A stretch of 40,885 nt of DNA from a virus. Both the position numbers and the translations under genes were made by a program. The notes beneath the pieces are model-generated. The model saw only the letters and a list, made by a program, of their open reading frames with translations. It ran no database searches and had not been told where the DNA came from. Location of the stretch: UHGV virus genome UHGV-0869933; one strand, 5' to 3'. The first letter of the stretch is position 1, and each line of letters starts with the position of its first letter. Positions 4,172 to 21,723 of this stretch are shown one piece after another.

Positions 4172-6028
4172 TTATGATGATGCTGGTGCATTTATCTCCA
4201 GCACCAGACTTTCTATCTCAACGCCATACGCTGCATTTTTGGTAATATCCGTCAGCGTCAGCGCATTCAGCCCCAGTGTCAGACTGTCTTTTATGACCTG
4301 GAATGCCGGGCCAGCCACTCCATTCAGTTTCGGAGTAACCGTGGCACTGCCGGCGGTGAACACCAGTTCCAGCGTCTGCCAGTCGTTACTGTAATTCCCG
4401 AACTCGCCCAACTTTGTGTTTCCGGCTTTCTTGTGATGCATCAGATTCAGTTTGCCGTCTGTGGTCTGGGTGAAGAACGACATCAGGAACGGGTTACCAG
4501 TCCCGGTCATCGCCACGACGTCAGGTAACGCTACATCGGTATACAGATAAATTCCCAGACCGAACTGGTTGTTGGTCAGTGCGCCTGACAGTCGAAACTT
4601 ACAGCTCAGTCTGCCACCCCGTGTCAGCAGGGAGACTGCGTCATCCACCGGATGCATCAGGGACCAGGTTTTATTGCTCTGCTTGGTAACCTTAAACACA
4701 CCATCTTCCAGCGCAACACTGCCGCCGGTGATGGTCCAGCCCTGCGCAGCAGCCTCTCCGGCTGTCGGCAGCAGGGAGACTGTACGAACGGATGTGTCAC
4801 CATCAGACGGCCCCGATGGCGTGTCGCCGCCGGGCGAGGGTTTAATCTCCGGTGCGGTACCGCTGATGAAGGCGCTGGTTCGACCAACTGCGTTCAGAAT
4901 AGCGGTTGCCAGGCGATCCGAAATAATGCCCCTGCGCGCCCATGAACTGAAATGTGTCGGACGATTTGACGATACCCAATTACCATTACTACGGGATTGC
5001 GCGCCGTAATAACCTGCATCAGCAATATCCGGGTCTTCTGCCGGTAAGTTGGTGGGCGTGTTGTTGCCGTTACCGTCGGTCATGAACGGCACAAAGAAAA
5101 CGTTGTCGCTCTCCCTGTTTTTGTACGCGCCGTAGACGGAGTCATACTGTGTGCCGTATGTGTTTTTCCAGTAATACGTCGTGTCGCCACAAATCCACGG
5201 TACAACTGCAGCACTGCCGCCATGGCACTGCGCGTTAAATCCGGAAAGGTCAGTACGGAACTGCTTCAGCATGGCCGTGAACAGGTCCGGTTGCTGTGCG
5301 TAGGTGGCAGCGCTCATGTCAAATTCGCCCTGCATCCAGCACACCGCCAGCAACACATTTTTCGGGTTCTTCTGTAATGCCGCTTTGGTGCGTGCGATCA
5401 GGTCCTGATATAACGGTTTACCCACACCCCAGCGTGCCGAATCCTGGCTGGCCCCCGTGTCCGCACTGAATGTCCCCTCCGCGCCCTGGGTGAATGCCGA
5501 ACCACCACGACAGCATGGTACCAGCAGGATCCCCGCGTTATTCGGGATATACGGAAGCAGTTTTTTGGCAATATGTAAGCCCTGGCCGACACAGCCGTAC
5601 TGCCCTTTGCTCAGGTCTGCCTTCGGATGATTCAGTGCGCTCATATCCTGAACATCATGCAGGCAGTGGTCTGCCGGAATGATGTCGTTAAATGCGCATG
5701 CTTTACCACCGGGAGTCACTGTGTTGCGACGGGCCAGTTGCTTAATGCGTGGGTGGGGCGCATCGTAAGAATCCGGAAGCGGAAGCCCTTCACCGTAAGC
5801 CATGGCATTGGATTGCCCGGCCAGTACGATGACGTAGTACCACTCCGGCTCAGTTGCACCACTGACGACCACATCACCTTCTGCTGCAATCGCCTGCATC
5901 AGGGTATAAGGGGTTATGGCCACCGGACTACCAAACGGCTGCCAGCCCTCTTTCAGTTTATGTGTCAGCTTTTCCGCAAGATCTGACGGCGACGCCGCCC
6001 TGACAACATCATAGTGTTTAAATGCCAT
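4172..6028 (-). CDS. nanS: Prophage-type sialate O-acetylesterase NanS-p (DUF1737 + SGNH/SASA esterase + C-terminal domain)
   Basis: N-terminal MAFKHYDVVRAASPSDLAEKL (DUF1737-like), GQSNA esterase motif, about 620 aa; sits between the stx-equivalent locus and the holin, as in Stx and related lambdoid phages. Confidence 0.8.
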   Translation of the reverse strand: MAFKHYDVVRAASPSDLAEKLTHKLKEGWQPFGSPVAITPYTLMQAIAAEGDVVVSGATEPEWYYVIVLAGQSNAMAYGEGLPLPDSYDAPHPRIKQLARRNTVTPGGKACAFNDIIPADHCLHDVQDMSALNHPKADLSKGQYGCVGQGLHIAKKLLPYIPNNAGILLVPCCRGGSAFTQGAEGTFSADTGASQDSARWGVGKPLYQDLIARTKAALQKNPKNVLLAVCWMQGEFDMSAATYAQQPDLFTAMLKQFRTDLSGFNAQCHGGSAAVVPWICGDTTYYWKNTYGTQYDSVYGAYKNRESDNVFFVPFMTDGNGNNTPTNLPAEDPDIADAGYYGAQSRSNGNWVSSNRPTHFSSWARRGIISDRLATAILNAVGRTSAFISGTAPEIKPSPGGDTPSGPSDGDTSVRTVSLLPTAGEAAAQGWTITGGSVALEDGVFKVTKQSNKTWSLMHPVDDAVSLLTRGGRLSCKFRLSGALTNNQFGLGIYLYTDVALPDVVAMTGTGNPFLMSFFTQTTDGKLNLMHHKKAGNTKLGEFGNYSNDWQTLELVFTAGSATVTPKLNGVAGPAFQVIKDSLTLGLNALTLTDITKNAAYGVEIESLVLEINAPASS

Positions 6029-6288
6029 GGTTCTTTCCACCATCTGAAAAATGATTCTTTAAAATACCTGACATGTAATACAGAAAAAACACAAAACCAT
6101 ACCTTAAATAAAAACCTCATCATCAAGCAGATATGCATGGATAAACTACAAGACGAGATATAAACCACCCTGCATTTAAATAAACAATAAACAACATCAG
6201 AAAAATAATTCTGCTCTATGGTTTACAATCAAAAATATCATTTATACTTTTCAGAACATCACCAGCAAGGCATAAACAAGGAAACTAA

Positions 6289-6624
6289 ATGAAGTGGATT
6301 GTGATTGATACAGTTATCCAGCCATCATGCGGAATATCTTTTTCAGTCATATGGAGTAAAATAAAATTAATAATCTGGTATCAATCGGATGCTTTCTTAC
6401 CTCCTGAAAGTATATTTACACTGACTCACACAGGCATCATGCTCAATAACAAAGTGCTACCTGTAACCATTTACAACGTAGTACCATTCAATAAAACATT
6501 ATGGAATTTAATCAAAAACAGCCAGGAATGCCCTACAAATACAGATAACGTATTGAATGAATGCTTTAATAACCGTTGCACTCTGCAAATATGTCCTTAT
6601 GGGCTAAAACAACAAAGTCCATAA
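6289..6624 (+). CDS. Hypothetical Cys-containing protein in an AT-rich island at the stx-equivalent locus
   Basis: 111-aa ORF with AAGGAAA RBS 5-6 nt upstream; strongly AT-rich relative to neighbours; opposite strand to the late operon; followed by a strong hairpin at 6660-6680. Confidence 0.4.
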
Positions 6625-6659
6625 GCAGTTTACTCACATCTGACAAAATCAATATAAAC

Positions 6660-6868
6660 AGCCCCTCCGGAGAGGGGCTGGAGAGTGGCGCTATGTGCCA
6701 TTGCATGGTGCCGGGTGCCTCCCGGTGAATTCAGTACCAGCACCTGAATCCGCGATTATCCCATATACCTACTCGCTGATTACCCCTCCGCACAGGGGGA
6801 TTCACCATGCGAAATTTTTTAACAAACTTCCCGCCGGCCAGACAATAATCGCCAGCCTGAATTATGAG
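6660..6868. repeat. Copy A of a diverged roughly 210-bp non-coding element
   Basis: Shares with copy B the hairpin AGCCCCTCCGGAGAGGGGCT, GCATGGTGCC-N-CCTCCCGGT-AATTCAG, GGGGGATTCACCATGCGA and a CCAGACAAT-ATC tail. Confidence 0.7.
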
Positions 6869-7132
6869 CAACGTGGCATTTTACGGGAAAACTGTTTTCT
6901 GCAGTAAAAAGGCCCGCCGGAGCGAGCCTGGAAGGATAGCGGTCATGTGATGCCGGTTTCCCGGTAACTCAGCATCGGTATCTGAGTCAACGTTTTCTCT
7001 ACTGGGTCATTTCCGATACGTTCCGCCTTCCGGCAGACTTTCATCACGTCAGAAAATATAGCACCCTGAGTAACAGGACAGTACTCAGAATTCAGGAAAC
7101 TGTGACACATCCTGCACAGAAAAGCCCCTCCG

Positions 7133-7347
7133 GAGAGGGGCTGAAGTATAGCCTAATTTCTGTCTGTCGCATGGTGCCAGGGGCCTCCCGGTAAATTCAG
7201 CCTGTCTACTGAATTTGCATGTTCTCTGGATCATACACTTTGCCAGATGCCCCGCCGCTGAGGGGGATTCACCATGCGATGTAATTTTTAACAAATTCTC
7301 CGGCAGCCAGACAATCATCAAGCTGTGGAATTGTGAGGTATTTAAAA
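7133..7347. repeat. Copy B of the same diverged element
   Basis: Same block order and orientation as copy A with scattered substitutions and indels; no conserved ORF across the two copies. Confidence 0.7.
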
Positions 7348-7499
7348 ATTTCAACGGGTAACTGATACCCTGCTAATCGCCTGATGCTTTCTTTTTCAGC
7401 AACGGGAAAGCAACAACCACACACCCGCCACCAAAACACCATCAGACAGCACCGACATTATCCGGCTGCTGAAGTCCACCATCACCACCAGAAACAACA

Positions 7500-7557
7500 G
7501 GAGTGCAACCACAGCTGCTTAGAAGGCAATTGCTCTGTCCGGCTGAGCTAACAACGC
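7500..7557 (-). pseudogene. tRNA-like remnant (5' half resembling tRNA-Arg UCU)
   Basis: Minus-strand GCGTTGT-TA-GCTCAGCCGGACAGAGC-A-ATTGC-CTTCTAA-GCAGC has acceptor, D-arm and anticodon loop (anticodon TCT), but no credible T-arm or 3' acceptor follows. Confidence 0.3.
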
Positions 7558-7570
7558 ATGATGCAGATAA

Positions 7571-7647
7571 TGGACCGCCATCGGGGACTTGAACCCCGCG
7601 CAGCCAGCTTCGAAGGCTGGCGCTCTATCCCGATGAGCTAATGGCGG
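7571..7647 (-). tRNA. tRNA-Arg (anticodon UCG)
   Basis: Hand-folded cloverleaf: 7-bp acceptor CCGCCAT/ATGGCGG, D-arm GCTC...GAGC, anticodon loop CTTCGAA, T-arm CGGGG-TTCAAGT-CCCCG, 3' CCA encoded. Confidence 0.8.
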
Positions 7648-7654
7648 TATGTGA

Positions 7655-7730
7655 TGGTGGCCCTTGCTGGATTTGAACCAGCGACCTGGCGATTATGAGT
7701 CGCTCGCTCTCACCACTGAGCTAAAGGGCC
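7655..7730 (-). tRNA. tRNA-Ile2/Met type (anticodon CAU), ileZ-like
   Basis: GGCCCTT-TA-GCTCAGTGGTGAGAGC-G-AGCGA-CTCATAA-TCGCC-AGGTC-GCTGG-TTCAAAT-CCAGC-AAGGGCC-A-CCA; resembles E. coli ileX and the phage ileZ. Confidence 0.8.
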
Positions 7731-7779
7731 GGAAGCAGAATAATAATGGTGCGTAATTAATTCTGCAATCTCATCCGTT

Positions 7780-8829
7780 TCAAACGATTAAATCCTGAAC
7801 TTCCCTGACTGTCTGCTCAAAACGTCCGGTCTCCAGTTCAACGCCAATCGCACGACGCCCGAGCGCCAGTGCAGCTTTTACCGTTGAACCTGAGCCCATA
7901 AAAAAATCTGCAACCAGGTCACCCGGACGACTGCTTGCGCTGATTATCTGCTGCAGCATTTCTGCCGGTTTTTCGCACGGATGTTTCCCGGGATAGAACT
8001 GCACCGGTTTATGTGTCCACACATCCGTGTACGGCACCTGCGCCGTCACACCAAAATACCGCCGCAGATGCTTATATTCACTCTGCAGCTCCACATACTG
8101 CCGGTTCAGTGACGTATACGTATCCACCAGCTGGTGGTGGGGCTTTTCCAGTTCACCGCGCTGATGTTTCTCTTCTGCCACCCGGGCAAACAGCGACTGT
8201 AATTTCAGATAATCGCTTTCGTTCGGTAGCTGCCACTGACTGGCACTGAACCAGTGCGACACCATGTTTTTCTTTCCTGTGGCATCTGCAATCTGTTTTG
8301 CCGTTATCCCCAGGGCCGCGCGCGCATCACGAAAGTAAGAAATCAGCGGGGCCATCACATGCTGTTTCAGTGCACTGCCCTTCGCCGCATACCCGGCATC
8401 TTTCGGACGATACGGCCCCTGATAATGTTCCGCGAACAGAATGCGCTCTGTGGCGGGGAAATACGCCCGCAGGCTTTCCTTGTTGCATCCGTTCCAGCGT
8501 CCGGACGGCTTCGCCCAGATAATATGGTTCAGCACACTGAAGCGTTCACGCATCATGATTTCGATATCAGATGCCAGGCGATGACCACAGAACAGGTAAA
8601 GACTTCCGACAGGTTTCAGCACCCGCCAGAACTGCGCCAGACACTGGTCCAGCCACTTCAGGTAATCATCGTCGCCCTTCCACTGGTTATCCCATCCCTC
8701 AGTCTTCACTTTAAAGTACGGCGGGTCCGTGACTATCAGGTCAACAGAATTTTCGGGTAACGACCGGATAAATTCCAGGCAGTCGGCGTTGATTAACTCA
8801 CAACTGGATATTTTTACAGTATTAAGCAT
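7780..8829 (-). CDS. Orphan DNA methyltransferase (beta-class amino-methyltransferase, N6-adenine or N4-cytosine)
   Basis: 349 aa; DPPY (motif IV) near the N-terminus and FFMGSGST (motif I) near the C-terminus; no restriction endonuclease partner nearby; sits between Q and the tRNAs as in Stx2-type phages. Confidence 0.8.
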   Translation of the reverse strand: MLNTVKISSCELINADCLEFIRSLPENSVDLIVTDPPYFKVKTEGWDNQWKGDDDYLKWLDQCLAQFWRVLKPVGSLYLFCGHRLASDIEIMMRERFSVLNHIIWAKPSGRWNGCNKESLRAYFPATERILFAEHYQGPYRPKDAGYAAKGSALKQHVMAPLISYFRDARAALGITAKQIADATGKKNMVSHWFSASQWQLPNESDYLKLQSLFARVAEEKHQRGELEKPHHQLVDTYTSLNRQYVELQSEYKHLRRYFGVTAQVPYTDVWTHKPVQFYPGKHPCEKPAEMLQQIISASSRPGDLVADFFMGSGSTVKAALALGRRAIGVELETGRFEQTVREVQDLIV

Positions 8830-9403: not shown

Positions 9404-10225
9404 CTATCGCGTTACCCTCTTTAACTGCCGCTCCGCCCATGCCTCTTCAATGTCAAACCGAACCACCAACGTATCGTAAAAGCGTTTCACTGATTTTTTC
9501 CACGTATCAAGCGTGATAGCACTCGTCACTTTGCATATGGCATTAAATGCCTCCGTTGATGGCAGCCTTTCACAGCCACGACCACCACAACGCTGGCAAT
9601 CTCTGATAACAGGCATACCACGTTTTACCGACTCTTCACGATGAATGGCGACACCACGCCCACGGCAATCCTTACAGGCGGTGGAAACCTCACCCTTTCC
9701 GCCACACTCCGGACAGGCAACTTTTACCACCTCCCTGACTTTTTTCCATTCTTCCCAGTAAGACGGATACACGCCTTTTGTGCACTTTGCCCACACTGGT
9801 GGCTTACCATCCGGATACTGGATCTTGTTTGTAAAAACCTCGCTTTCAATAAATTTTTTTCCGTGACAGCAGGGGCACTGTTTTTTGCTCGCCGCGCTAC
9901 GGGCATAATCTTCAAACGCATACGAAGCCATAATGCGCATCACTACCGGTTTTATTTCTGCCGGAAGTTTTCTCAACGCCGCCACACGATCGCACCGACT
10001 GAGTGCATAATCTGCCAGTAATTCTGTTGCCCGCGCCCTGTCATTCATACTGATGCCCATTTTCCCCAGGAACGCAGAAAACCCCATCTCAGCCCGATTC
10101 TGTGTCATGCCCTGCGCGGCCATCACATCAGTGATACTCAGCGCATCTTTTGACGTTGAGGCCGATGCATCGGTCAGGCCAGGGGATTTTGGGGAGTAGT
10201 ATTTCGGTAAATCTTCCAGTTTCAT
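9404..10225 (-). CDS. Q: Late antiterminator Q-like protein (zinc-binding)
   Basis: 273 aa with several CxxC pairs; sits between rusA and pR' exactly where lambdoid Q genes lie; family assignment is from context and motifs. Confidence 0.6.
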   Translation of the reverse strand: MKLEDLPKYYSPKSPGLTDASASTSKDALSITDVMAAQGMTQNRAEMGFSAFLGKMGISMNDRARATELLADYALSRCDRVAALRKLPAEIKPVVMRIMASYAFEDYARSAASKKQCPCCHGKKFIESEVFTNKIQYPDGKPPVWAKCTKGVYPSYWEEWKKVREVVKVACPECGGKGEVSTACKDCRGRGVAIHREESVKRGMPVIRDCQRCGGRGCERLPSTEAFNAICKVTSAITLDTWKKSVKRFYDTLVVRFDIEEAWAERQLKRVTR

Positions 10226-13449: not shown

Positions 13450-13605
13450 TTACTCCTCAGGTTCGTAAGCTGTGAAGACAGCGACCTCCGTCTGGCCGGT
13501 TCGGATTCGTACCTCGCAGAGGTCTTTCCTCGTTACCAGTGCCGTCACAATGACGGTTAAACAGATGACGATCAGGGCGATTAGCATCGCCTTTTGCTGC
13601 TTCAT
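13450..13605 (-). CDS. hokD: Hok/Gef-family type I toxin (HokD/RelF-like)
   Basis: MKQQKAMLIALIVICLTVIVTALVTRKDLCEVRIRTGQTEVAVFTAYEPEE matches the Qin HokD (RelF) sequence as I recall it; the track ORF carries a mok-like upstream extension. Confidence 0.85.
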   Translation of the reverse strand: MKQQKAMLIALIVICLTVIVTALVTRKDLCEVRIRTGQTEVAVFTAYEPEE

Positions 13606-13886
13606 AGCCTGCTTCTCCTTGCCTTTCGGCACGTAAGAGGCTAACCTACGTGTGTAGAGCATAGATATGGCCTCAGATTAATGTTAAGCGTCTTGCCGGA
13701 CGCGTAATGTTAACTGGGGCTTTTCTCTATCTGCCTTTTGGTGTTCATGCCTGAGACAGATAGCCTCAAGCACCCGCTGCAATTCTACTTAACTCTCCTT
13801 TTCCCGCAAACCGTTTTTATCCCCAGCGGCAAATCGAATACACCACCAGCGCCACCGCCATCGCAATTCCTACCGTTGTTAATGCT

Positions 13887-21496: not shown

Positions 21497-21555
21497 TTTC
21501 TGGTGACGTTTGGCGGTATCAGTTTTACTCCGTGACTGCTCTGCCGCCCTTTTTA
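21497..21555 (+). ncRNA. dicF: DicF small regulatory RNA
   Basis: TTTCTGGTGACGTTTGGCGGTATCAGTTTTACTCCGTGACTGCTCTGCCGCCCTTTTT matches the E. coli DicF sequence as I recall it; lies immediately upstream of dicB. Confidence 0.8.
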
Positions 21556-21723
21556 AAGTGAATTTTGTGATGCGGTGAATGCGGCTAAGCGCACGCGGAA
21601 CAGTTAAAACCAAAAACAGTGTTATGGGTGGATTCTCTGTATCCGGCGTTAATTGTTAACTGGTTAACGTCACCTGGAGGCACCAGGCACCGCATCACAA
21701 AACTCATTGTTGAGGGCGCGATA

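What the first reader, a model, noticed from the sequence alone, without database searches (positions are those of the whole stretch)
6660..7347. Two diverged copies of an about 210-bp structured non-coding element between the tRNAs and nanS
Copies at 6660-6868 and 7133-7347 share an identical strong hairpin (AGCCCCTCCGGAGAGGGGCT) and several conserved blocks in the same order. Both retain a long-range complementary pair, GCATGGTG ... CACCATGC, about 90-110 nt apart, as well as an internal CCGGG/CCCGG-type hairpin. No ORF is conserved between the copies, so conservation is at the RNA or DNA-structure level. They lie on the Q-dependent late transcript upstream of nanS and could be processed RNA elements, terminator or attenuator modules, or decayed repeats of a mobile element.
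Basis: seen in the sequence. Interest (0 to 1): 0.6.

Follow-up and report, generated by a model that had tools for sequence, protein, structure and literature searches.

The report
Three tandem STnc100 prophage small RNAs
The two repeats are real, but they are copies of an already described prophage small regulatory RNA (Rfam family STnc100), read from the opposite strand and part of a tandem set of three such genes, so the finding is ordinary.

Summary
The 20-nt hairpin occurs twice (6660-6679, 7123-7142), and GCATGGTG...CACCATGC flanks two 108/109-nt blocks; neither pattern occurs in shuffled sequence. Both copies are strong matches, on the minus strand, to Rfam RF02076 (STnc100): 138 and 132.5 bits against a gathering score of 47. 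A third, diverged copy between them was missed (30 bits in Rfam; 61.7 bits, E 2e-11, with my own core model). Each unit reads as a small gene. Homologues show compensatory changes in 14 of 26 core pairs. Published homologues (EcOnc27/sRNA103, STnc100_4, PasD1/2) are discrete RNAs seen on Northern blots; EcOnc27 and PasD are Hfq-associated. They lie at the same site, between the Q/late promoter region and the lysis genes of lambdoid prophages. The molecular function of the family is still unknown. Most likely these are trans-acting base-pairing sRNAs made in the lysogen, whose terminators Q-modified polymerase reads through. Verdict: already known, low interest. Side observation: the dicF-dicB spacer (21560-21705) has the same core fold.

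The parts
7117..7277 (-). sRNA copy A, predicted transcript of about 161 nt. Closing helix P1 is 7277..7270 with 7176..7169. Inner hairpins include CCGGGAGGCCCCUGG at 7191..7177. The single-stranded linker is 7168..7143 (GACAGACAGAAAUUAGGCUAUACUUC). The terminator stem-loop is 7142..7123, followed by UUUU at 7122..7119.
   Evidence: Rfam STnc100 7307..7114, 138 bits, E 1.7e-30. Own core model: 97.5 bits. Fold -62.5 kcal/mol, z -3.0. Terminator scan. The 5' end is inferred from the PasD 5' end.
7285..7314 (-). Promoter-like region of copy A: TTGTCT (7314..7309), 18-nt spacer, then extended -10 TGnTAAAAA (7293..7285). It ends 7 nt before the predicted +1 at 7277.
   Evidence: Read directly from the sequence. 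The same motif sits at the same distance from P1 in E. coli, Stx-phage and Klebsiella-phage homologues. The consensus scan did not report it. Function is inferred.
6904..7049 (-). sRNA copy B, diverged, predicted about 146 nt. P1 is ACGUGAUG (7049..7042) with CAUCACAU (6952..6945). It has GGAA- and GAAA-loop hairpins. The linker is GACCGCUAUCCUUCCA. The terminator is 6929..6910, followed by UUUUU at 6909..6905.
   Evidence: Rfam STnc100 7078..6903, 30 bits, E 3e-4, below the gathering score. Own core model: 61.7 bits, E 2e-11. Three P1 pairs are changed on both sides relative to A and C. Fold -50.3 kcal/mol, z -2.9. Terminator scan.
7055..7063 (-). Promoter-like extended -10 of copy B, TGCTATATT, ending 6 nt before the predicted +1 at 7049. 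There is no convincing -35.
   Evidence: Read directly from the sequence. Function is inferred.
6652..6810 (-). sRNA copy C, predicted about 159 nt. This is the type found upstream of nanS in most related phages. P1 is 6810..6803 with 6710..6703. Inner hairpins include CCGGGAGGCACCCGG at 6725..6711. The linker is AAUGGCACAUAGCGCCACUCUCCA. The terminator is 6680..6659, followed by a U-rich tail.
   Evidence: Rfam STnc100 6838..6650, 132.5 bits, E 4.4e-29. Own core model: 122 bits. Fold -69.8 kcal/mol, z -3.2. Terminator scan.
6816..6845 (-). Promoter-like region of copy C: TTGTCT (6845..6840), 18-nt spacer, then TGnTAAAAA (6824..6816). It ends 5 nt before the predicted +1 at 6810.
   Evidence: Read directly from the sequence and conserved in homologues. 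Function is inferred.

Best explanation
The region holds three tandem genes, on the minus strand, for small RNAs of the STnc100 family (Rfam RF02076). This is the family of EcOnc27/sRNA103 in Stx phages and is distantly related to PasD of EPEC.

Anatomy of each unit, in order:
1. A sigma-70-type promoter that relies on an extended -10.
2. A transcript that starts at the first base of the 8-bp closing helix.
3. A 105-109-nt multi-branched core.
4. A 16-27-nt single-stranded linker that differs between the three copies.
5. A GC-rich intrinsic terminator with a U tail.

Proposed mechanism:
- In the lysogen each unit is transcribed on its own and stops at its own terminator, giving a stable sRNA of about 145-160 nt.
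- The sRNA is Hfq-associated and base-pairs with mRNAs in trans. The pairing region is most likely the copy-specific linker next to the terminator, so the three copies would have different targets.
- The shared core is a stabilising or protein-binding scaffold.
- After induction, Q-modified RNA polymerase coming from upstream reads through the three terminators to reach nanS and the lysis genes.

Shown here:
- Family membership of A and C, and homology of B.
- The strand.
- The helices and their covariation.
- The terminators.
- The conserved position of the family in lambdoid late regions.

Inferred:
- The promoters and 5' ends, from the PasD 5' end and motif conservation.
- Expression and Hfq binding, from published homologues.
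- The location of the pairing region and the targets.
- Q read-through, from the established lambda Q mechanism.
For: Family membership
- Rfam cmscan gives 138 and 132.5 bits against a gathering score of 47, full-length, minus strand only. The third copy is sub-threshold but reaches E 2e-11 with my core model.

Structure
- On 25 distinct homologous cores, 97.7% of cells are paired, against 34-47% when the partners are slid.
- 14 of 26 pairs have changes on both sides, and 0 of 500 shuffles reach the observed values.
- RNAalifold on an independent MAFFT alignment recovers P1, P2, P4 and P5, with 15 of 26 pairs compensatory.
- All three RNAs fold to the same architecture, with z about -3.

Strand
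- U tails follow the hairpins only on the minus strand.
- One P4 pair is G-U in 21 of 25 sequences, which would be C-A on the other strand.

Own transcription unit
- The 5' end of PasD2, from RNA-seq coverage and Northern size (PMC8550237 table S6), is the G of GCATGGTG.
- TTGnCT/TTGACT, 17-18 nt, then a (TGn)TAAAAA-like -10 lies just upstream in otherwise different sequences, including Klebsiella phages.

Position
- Members sit between Q or stx and the holin, on the late strand, in Stx2, Stx1, Evi, JLK-2012 and Klebsiella phages. One is present in 72 of 80 nanS-anchored viral loci.

Literature
- Eleven STnc100 copies are transcribed in EDL933, with a Northern blot for STnc100_4 (PMC5331693).
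- EcOnc27/sRNA103, downstream of stx2B, binds Hfq, has been seen on a Northern blot and overlaps STnc100 (PMC12711010, PMC7873438, PMC4104026).
- PasD1/2 are seen on Northern blots in wild-type, hfq-flag and delta-hfq strains, are reported as Hfq-dependent and have RIL-seq targets (PMC8550237).
- PasD and STnc100 are reported as structural homologues (bioRxiv 10.64898/2026.05.13.724894).
Against: - No expression data exist for these particular copies.
- The simple sigma-70 scan found no minus-strand promoter. The -35 elements are weak, and the mirror image of the same AT-rich block scores as a plus-strand promoter.
- No target or molecular function has been validated for any STnc100 member. 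For PasD the proposed seed (UGUGAG) lies in a 3' module that copies A-C lack.
- The U tail of copy C is interrupted (UGUUUAUAUU), so termination may be leaky.
- The covariation alignment was fitted to the model, which favours the structure. Many rows are near-identical and related by descent.
- One EDL933 copy of the C type (STnc100_10, which carries the string tatgggata found in copy C) had high ribosome coverage (PMC5331693).
Confidence: 0.8

Rival explanations
1. The units act mainly in cis as terminator or insulator modules. Three intrinsic terminators between the tRNA/methylase/moron region and nanS plus the lysis cassette keep those genes silent in the lysogen and make them dependent on Q antitermination. 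On this view the RNAs are by-products.
For: There are three minus-strand hairpin-plus-U terminators, one per unit, against an expectation of 2.0 terminator-like sites on both strands in shuffles. The position between Q and the holin is conserved across lambdoid phages. This is compatible with the best explanation as a second role.
Against: A terminator does not need a 108-nt core with covarying helices or a conserved promoter-like motif. Homologues accumulate as discrete RNAs, and EcOnc27 and PasD are Hfq-associated and pair with mRNAs (PMC8550237, PMC4104026).
Confidence: 0.1
2. The cores are structural or processing elements of the long late transcript, for example nuclease entry or stability sites. 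Any small RNAs would be cut out of the Q-dependent mRNA rather than separately transcribed.
For: The same core fold occurs without a promoter or terminator inside the dicBF operon RNA of this window, at 21560-21705, closed by a helix of about 18 bp.
Against: In the array each core is followed by its own terminator and preceded by a promoter-like motif. PasD has a defined 5' end at P1 and is abundant in uninduced cells (PMC8550237). STnc100 copies are expressed in EDL933 cultures without induction (PMC5331693). P1 is only 8 bp here, which is short for RNase III.
Confidence: 0.06
3. The repeats are decaying duplicates or remnants of a mobile or recombination-prone DNA element and have no RNA function.
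For: The family is mosaic. Promoter, core and 3' modules are reshuffled between phages. One viral locus (L139) has the copy-A promoter fused to the copy-C body, which shows recombination between array members.
Against: Helices are kept by compensatory changes even in the diverged copy B. There is a G-U pair specific to one strand. Cores are conserved from E. coli to Klebsiella phages. No flanking inverted repeats or transposase genes were found.
Confidence: 0.02
4. The units encode small proteins.
For: Copy A has an 80-codon stop-free minus-strand frame (89-aa ORF 7354..7085). PGAP annotates a pseudo 'hypothetical protein' on the plus strand, antisense to copy C. One C-type copy in EDL933 had high ribosome coverage (PMC5331693).
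Against: No frame is open in more than one copy, and the indels between copies are mostly not multiples of three. Pfam finds nothing in the ORFs.
Confidence: 0.02

Closest known systems
STnc100 (Rfam RF02076), including EcOnc27/sRNA103 downstream of stx2B in Stx2 phages and the 11 STnc100 copies of E. coli O157:H7 EDL933
   Same: Copies A and C match the full-length model far above the gathering score. They share the helices, the terminator, and the genomic slot between the late promoter or moron genes and the lysis genes. The linker of copy A (CAGAAAUUAGGCUAUAC) resembles the linker of the Stx-phage members (CAGAGAUUAGGCAUAUA).
   Different: Here there are three units head to tail. The EDL933 copies listed in PMC5331693 are all at separate loci. 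The middle unit is too diverged to pass the Rfam threshold. No convergent anti-sRNA partner is present.
PasD1/PasD2 of EPEC E2348/69 (homologue EcOnc13 of EHEC)
   Same: Same promoter-to-P1 arrangement and the same 5' part of the core (GCAUGGUGAAUCC...). Same position after a DUF3927 small ORF and, for PasD2, before the SASA/NanS esterase gene. Reported as structural homologues of STnc100 (bioRxiv 10.64898/2026.05.13.724894).
   Different: PasD scores only 38-41 bits on the STnc100 model and 49 bits on my core model. It lacks the CCGGG...CCCGG hairpin. It has a longer U-rich 3' module with the proposed seed UGUGAG, which is absent from copies A-C.
Convergent Hfq-binding sRNA dyads at the moron site of lambdoid prophages (EcOnc27 with AsxR; EcOnc06 with AgvB; Tree et al. 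2014, PMC4104026)
   Same: Same site, 3' of the late promoter and before the lysis genes. The sense-strand partner is the STnc100-type RNA.
   Different: No AsxR (RF02703) or AgvB (RF02702) match was found in the window. The convergent neighbour here is a protein gene (IraM-like).
The dicF-dicB spacer of Qin-type prophages (this window 21560-21705)
   Same: Same core architecture and shared sequence blocks (GGUGAAU..., UCACCUGGAGGCACCAGGCACC). It is detected by both the Rfam STnc100 model and my core model at E about 1e-7.
   Different: It has no promoter-like motif and no terminator of its own. It is embedded in the operon RNA and closed by a much longer helix. It falls below the Rfam gathering score.
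Tandem sibling sRNA genes such as OmrA/OmrB (from my own knowledge, not tested here)
   Same: Adjacent paralogous sRNA genes that share a conserved part and differ in another part.
   Different: No sequence or structural relation. In OmrA/B the conserved part is the seed, whereas here the conserved part is a structured core and the presumed pairing region varies.

Membership tests
STnc100 (Rfam RF02076) | Score at or above the curated gathering score (47 bits) on the family covariance model | tested here: met
   Copy A 138 bits and copy C 132.5 bits, both full length (model positions 1-206), minus strand. Copy B scores only 30 bits, so B is not a member by this criterion. It is a diverged relative: 61.7 bits, E 2e-11, on my core model.
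STnc100 (Rfam RF02076) | Consensus helices (long-range closing helix, inner hairpins, terminator) present and supported by covariation | tested here: met
   Alignments to the model. 97.7% of cells paired and 14 of 26 pairs changed on both sides. De novo RNAalifold gives 15 of 26. Folds of A, B and C.
STnc100 (Rfam RF02076) | Prophage location in the late region between Q or moron genes and the lysis genes, on the late strand | tested here: met
   Order on the minus strand: Q (PF03589), methylase, tRNAs, DUF3927, the array, nanS, holin. The same slot is used in other phages.
STnc100 (Rfam RF02076) | Discrete, stable transcript of about 160-210 nt | not testable with these tools
   Published only for homologues: STnc100_4 Northern blot (PMC5331693) and EcOnc27 Northern blot and Hfq-CRAC (PMC7873438).
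Hfq-dependent trans-acting base-pairing sRNA | Hfq binding, Hfq-dependent stability and mapped RNA partners | not testable with these tools
   Inferred from EcOnc27 (Hfq-CRAC) and PasD (reported Hfq-dependent stability, RIL-seq). The units have the usual intrinsic terminator with a U tail.
PasD | Sequence similarity to PasD1/2 over its length, including the 3' module with the proposed seed UGUGAG | tested here: not met
   Only the promoter and core 5' part align. The 3' module and seed are absent from A, B and C.
Anti-sRNAs AsxR / AgvB | Match to RF02703 or RF02702; a 51-60-nt RNA convergent with the STnc100-type partner | tested here: not met
   No match at gathering score in the window, nor at E up to 10 in 6000-7800. 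There is no U tail on the plus strand after the shared hairpins.

The most novel reading that the evidence does not exclude
The roughly 108-nt multi-branched core is a portable RNA domain with a function of its own, for example binding a host or phage protein, or directing or blocking a ribonuclease. Lambdoid phages would use it in two ways. One is as the chassis of free-standing sRNAs (STnc100, PasD, and the three-member array here, each with a different linker). The other is as an embedded element of an operon RNA (the dicF-dicB spacer of the same window). The tandem array would then deliver three different pairing regions on one common scaffold.
Probability: 0.2. Interest if true: 0.45.

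Novelty: already known. Interest (0 to 1): 0.15.

Why it matters
It matters little as a discovery. The two copies would be labelled STnc100 by any Rfam-based annotator. The family, its position in lambdoid late regions, and the Hfq binding of the Stx-phage member are all published.

The practical value is annotation. RefSeq/PGAP leaves this 700-bp stretch without any RNA feature and places a pseudo 'hypothetical protein' on it.

Three modest additions come from this work:
- About 7.6% of complete E. coli genomes (412 of 5426) carry a three-gene tandem array.
- The middle member is diverged but keeps its structure, and it escapes the Rfam threshold.
- The array members differ mainly in the linker next to the terminator, which gives a ready-made test of where the pairing region of this still function-less family lies.

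Tried and rejected
- **Species-representative genome scan.** I scanned with the 14-mer CGCATGGTGAATCC. Loci L005-L124 are irrelevant.
- **Sigma-70 scan.** The scan found no minus-strand promoter. It did find plus-strand TTAACA-16-GACAAT in both copies, which is the mirror image of the minus-strand motif. I chose the direction from the PasD 5' end, not from the scan.
- **Convergent anti-sRNA.** I looked for AsxR or AgvB, as in Sakai prophages, and found none.
- **Conserved ORFs.** I looked on both strands and found none.
- **PasD alignment.** MAFFT misaligned the 3' end of PasD. I therefore used a covariance-model alignment and checked it with an unfitted alignment without PasD.
- **RNase III at the dicF-dicB spacer.** I recalled that RNase III makes the 3' side of DicF. 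The paper I read places the mapped RNase III cut on the 5' side of the 190-nt DicF species (bioRxiv 10.1101/2023.04.14.536235). No known processing site can therefore be assigned to the dicF-dicB spacer.
- **Target prediction.** I did not attempt it. Only the 41-kb window is available, and short complementarities there would be at chance level.

Full report
**1. The observation**

- The 20-nt palindromic hairpin AGCCCCTCCGGAGAGGGGCT occurs exactly twice in the 40.9-kb window, at 6660-6679 and 7123-7142, with none in 100 shuffles.
- GCATGGTG followed 85-115 nt later by CACCATGC also occurs exactly twice, at 6703-6810 and 7169-7277, with none in shuffles.
- The repeat finder gives four collinear blocks at 83-93% identity.
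- A global alignment of the two units has 169 identical positions in 253 columns. The indels are mostly not multiples of three, and no reading frame is open in both copies.

The repeat finder also showed a third, weaker copy of the hairpin at 6907-6933.

**2. Identity**

A scan of the whole window against Rfam returned two full-length matches to RF02076, 'Gammaproteobacterial sRNA STnc100'. Both are on the minus strand: 7307..7114 (138 bits) and 6838..6650 (132.5 bits), against a gathering score of 47.
- The CCGGG/CCCGG hairpin is one of the inner hairpins of that consensus.
- The 'identical strong hairpin' is the terminator at the 3' end of each RNA.

With a permissive threshold a third match appears between them, at 7078..6903 (30 bits, E 3e-4). 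A covariance model that I built for the core alone scores the three units at 122, 97.5 and 61.7 bits (E 2e-11 for the middle one). With filters off it finds nothing else in the array. The region is therefore a head-to-tail array of three related units: A (7277..7117), B (7049..6904) and C (6810..6652).

**3. Context**

Everything relevant is on the minus strand of this window. The order is:
- a Q antiterminator gene (10225..9404, PF03589);
- a small ORF and a DNA methyltransferase gene;
- tRNA-Ile(CAU) and tRNA-Arg;
- a 28-codon DUF3927 ORF (7482..7396);
- the three units;
- nanS (6043..4172), a holin gene and a lysozyme gene.

An IraM-like gene on the plus strand (6289-6624; NCBIfam NF007393, 162 bits) lies between unit C and nanS.

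The stretch is 100% identical to prophages in many E. coli chromosomes. Of 5426 complete genomes, 2961 have some match and 412 have at least 80% of the whole array. RefSeq annotates no RNA there, only a pseudo 'hypothetical protein' antisense to unit C.

**4. Anatomy of a unit**

All three predicted RNAs fold into the same shape. They have an 8-bp closing helix, three or four inner hairpins, a single-stranded linker of 16-27 nt, and a GC-rich stem-loop followed by U residues. The folding energies are -62.5, -50.3 and -69.8 kcal/mol, about three standard deviations below shuffles.

The terminator scan finds one minus-strand terminator per unit: 7142..7123, 6929..6910 and 6680..6659.

The linkers differ between the copies:
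- A: GACAGACAGAAAUUAGGCUAUACUUC
- B: GACCGCUAUCCUUCCA
- C: AAUGGCACAUAGCGCCACUCUCCA

**5. Is the structure selected?**

Unit B answers part of this inside the window. Its closing helix is ACGUGAUG/CAUCACAU instead of GCAUGGUG/CACCAUGC. Three pairs are changed on both sides and one is broken. Its inner hairpins are rebuilt with GGAA and GAAA loops.

For a wider test I collected homologues from two sources:
- 80 viral contigs anchored on NanS rather than on the RNA;
- Stx2, Stx1, Evi, JLK-2012 and Klebsiella phages.

On the 25 distinct cores aligned to my model:
- 97.7% of cells form standard pairs, against 34-47% when the partners are slid by 1-3 columns;
- 14 of 26 pairs show changes on both sides;
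- no shuffle out of 500 reaches the observed values.

That alignment is fitted to the structure. I therefore also ran RNAalifold on a plain MAFFT alignment of 13 diverse cores. It recovers the closing helix and the main hairpins on its own, with 15 of 26 pairs compensatory.

One pair is G-U in 21 of 25 sequences. Together with the U tails, this fixes the RNA strand as the minus strand and argues against a DNA-level element.

**6. Own transcription units (inferred)**

PasD2 of EPEC is a published relative. Its 5' end was set from RNA-seq coverage in agreement with its Northern band size (PMC8550237 table S6). That 5' end is the G of GCATGGTG, the first base of the closing helix.

Upstream of that base, a -10-like block sits at a constant distance across the family, in sequences that are otherwise different:
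- units A and C: TTGTCT, 18 nt, TGnTAAAAA;
- unit B: TGCTATATT;
- PasD and several phages: TTGACT, 18 nt, TAAAAA;
- a Klebsiella phage: TTGACT, 18 nt, TAGATT.

The simple promoter scan did not report these, so this step remains an inference.

**7. What is published about the family**

- EDL933 has eleven STnc100 copies that are transcribed, one of them confirmed by Northern blot (PMC5331693).
- The copy 75 nt downstream of stx2B is carried in outer-membrane vesicles (PMC12370729). It overlaps EcOnc27/sRNA103, an Hfq-crosslinked RNA that has been seen on a Northern blot. Overexpressing it raises fimZ and espA transcripts by an unknown route (PMC12711010, PMC7873438).
- Tree et al. described such sRNAs as one partner of convergent pairs at the 'moron' site downstream of the Q-dependent late promoter in eight Sakai prophages (PMC4104026).
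- PasD1/2 are abundant RNAs, reported as Hfq-dependent, with RIL-seq partners (PMC8550237). They were recently reported as structural homologues of STnc100 (bioRxiv 10.64898/2026.05.13.724894).
- No direct target or mechanism has been validated for any STnc100 member.

**8. Most likely mechanism, and rivals**

The most likely reading is three sibling sRNA genes, each made in the lysogen from its own promoter and ended by its own terminator.
- By analogy with EcOnc27 and PasD they are Hfq-associated and pair with mRNAs in trans.
- I place the pairing region in the copy-specific linker next to the terminator, where PasD's proposed seed also lies. This is the weakest step.
- Because the three terminators lie between the Q gene and nanS plus the lysis genes, they should also stop unmodified polymerase and be read through by Q-modified polymerase. 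This follows from the established lambda Q mechanism and was not tested here.

The rivals are less likely:
- **Pure terminator or insulator role.** This does not explain the covarying core.
- **Processing elements of the late mRNA.** Each unit has its own promoter-like motif and terminator, and homologues are expressed without induction.
- **Decayed mobile-element repeats.** Helices are kept by compensatory changes, and cores are conserved from E. coli to Klebsiella phages.
- **Small proteins.** No frame is conserved between copies.

**9. Evolution of the array**

- In the NanS-anchored loci, 72 of 80 have a C-type unit upstream of nanS and 11 have the full A-B-C array.
- One locus (L139) has the promoter of A joined to the body of C. 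This is the product expected from recombination between the identical 5' parts of A and C.
- Across phages, the promoter type, the core variant and the 3' module (linker plus terminator) are combined in different ways. Some members carry a PasD-like 3' module on an STnc100-type core.

**10. Side observation**

My core model gave a fourth hit in the window, at 21570-21695 on the plus strand (43.5 bits, E about 1e-7). It lies between DicF (21498-21549) and the dicB start codon (21725).
- The Rfam STnc100 model also matches there, over its core positions 21-154 only (38.8 bits, E 6e-7, below the gathering score).
- The stretch 21560-21705 folds into the same branched shape, closed by a helix of about 18 bp (-57 kcal/mol, z -4.8).
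- It has no promoter-like motif and no terminator.
- It is present in 4633 of 5426 complete E. coli genomes.
- The published RNase III cut in the dicBF RNA is upstream of DicF, not here, so no role is known for this spacer.

The spacer suggests the core is an old, portable lambdoid RNA module. That is the basis of the 'novel case', to which I give a low probability.

**11. Verdict**

It missed the strand, the unit boundaries, the third copy, and the fact that this is a curated, published sRNA family.
- Novelty: already known.
- Interest: low (0.15).

Noticed in passing
window 21560-21705 (+), between DicF (21498-21549) and the dicB ATG (21725): The dicF-dicB spacer has the same multi-branched core as STnc100/PasD. 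It shares the blocks GGUGAAU and UCACCUGGAGGCACCAGGCACC and is closed by a helix of about 18 bp. Scores: own model 43.5 bits, Rfam STnc100 38.8 bits (sub-threshold, core positions only); fold z -4.8. It has no promoter-like motif or terminator, and it is present in 4633 of 5426 complete E. coli genomes. The published RNase III site of the dicBF RNA is upstream of DicF, so this element has no assigned role.
   Followed up: partly
window 6289-6624 (+): An AT-rich 111-codon gene for an IraM-like anti-adapter (NCBIfam NF007393, 162 bits; PGAP name 'anti-adapter protein IraM'). It sits as a moron on the strand opposite to the late genes, convergent with sRNA copy C and just upstream of nanS.
   Followed up: partly
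window 7396-7482 (-); also L003 1459-1617, L004 1562-1720, L002 2980-3144: A small DUF3927 ORF precedes the first STnc100/PasD-type unit in this window, in both PasD loci of E2348/69, and in phage JLK-2012, where the ORF at that position is annotated tciB (not checked against DUF3927). In this window it is only 28 codons and matches profile positions 18-40 of 53. The ORF and the sRNA appear to travel together.
   Followed up: partly
window 6819-6846 and 7288-7315 (+): A plus-strand promoter-like site, TTAACA-16-GACAAT, is conserved in copies A and C. It is the mirror image of the minus-strand promoter-like block. A divergent or antisense promoter cannot be excluded.
   Followed up: no
L139 2180-2399 (IMG/VR contig IMGVR_UViG_3300029191_000019): A single-copy locus whose unit has the upstream region of copy A fused to the body of copy C. 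This is the product expected from recombination between array members, which would collapse the array.
   Followed up: partly
window 13600-13775 (-): A full-length match to the sok antitoxin RNA family (RF01794, 117 bits). This implies a hok/sok-type toxin-antitoxin locus in the same prophage region.
   Followed up: no
window 6754-6768 (-), inside copy C: Copy C contains UAUGGGAUA. This is the string listed as a Shine-Dalgarno candidate for EDL933 STnc100_10, the copy with the highest ribosome coverage in PMC5331693. It includes a minimal AUG-GGA-UAA start-stop frame. Its significance is unknown.
   Followed up: no
L002, L206, L183, L162 (phages JLK-2012 and Evi, and IMG/VR contigs): Some family members combine an STnc100-type core with a long U-rich PasD-like 3' module and the PasD-type terminator GGCUGCGCAUGGCGYGGCC. 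The two named families therefore grade into each other by module exchange.
   Followed up: partly
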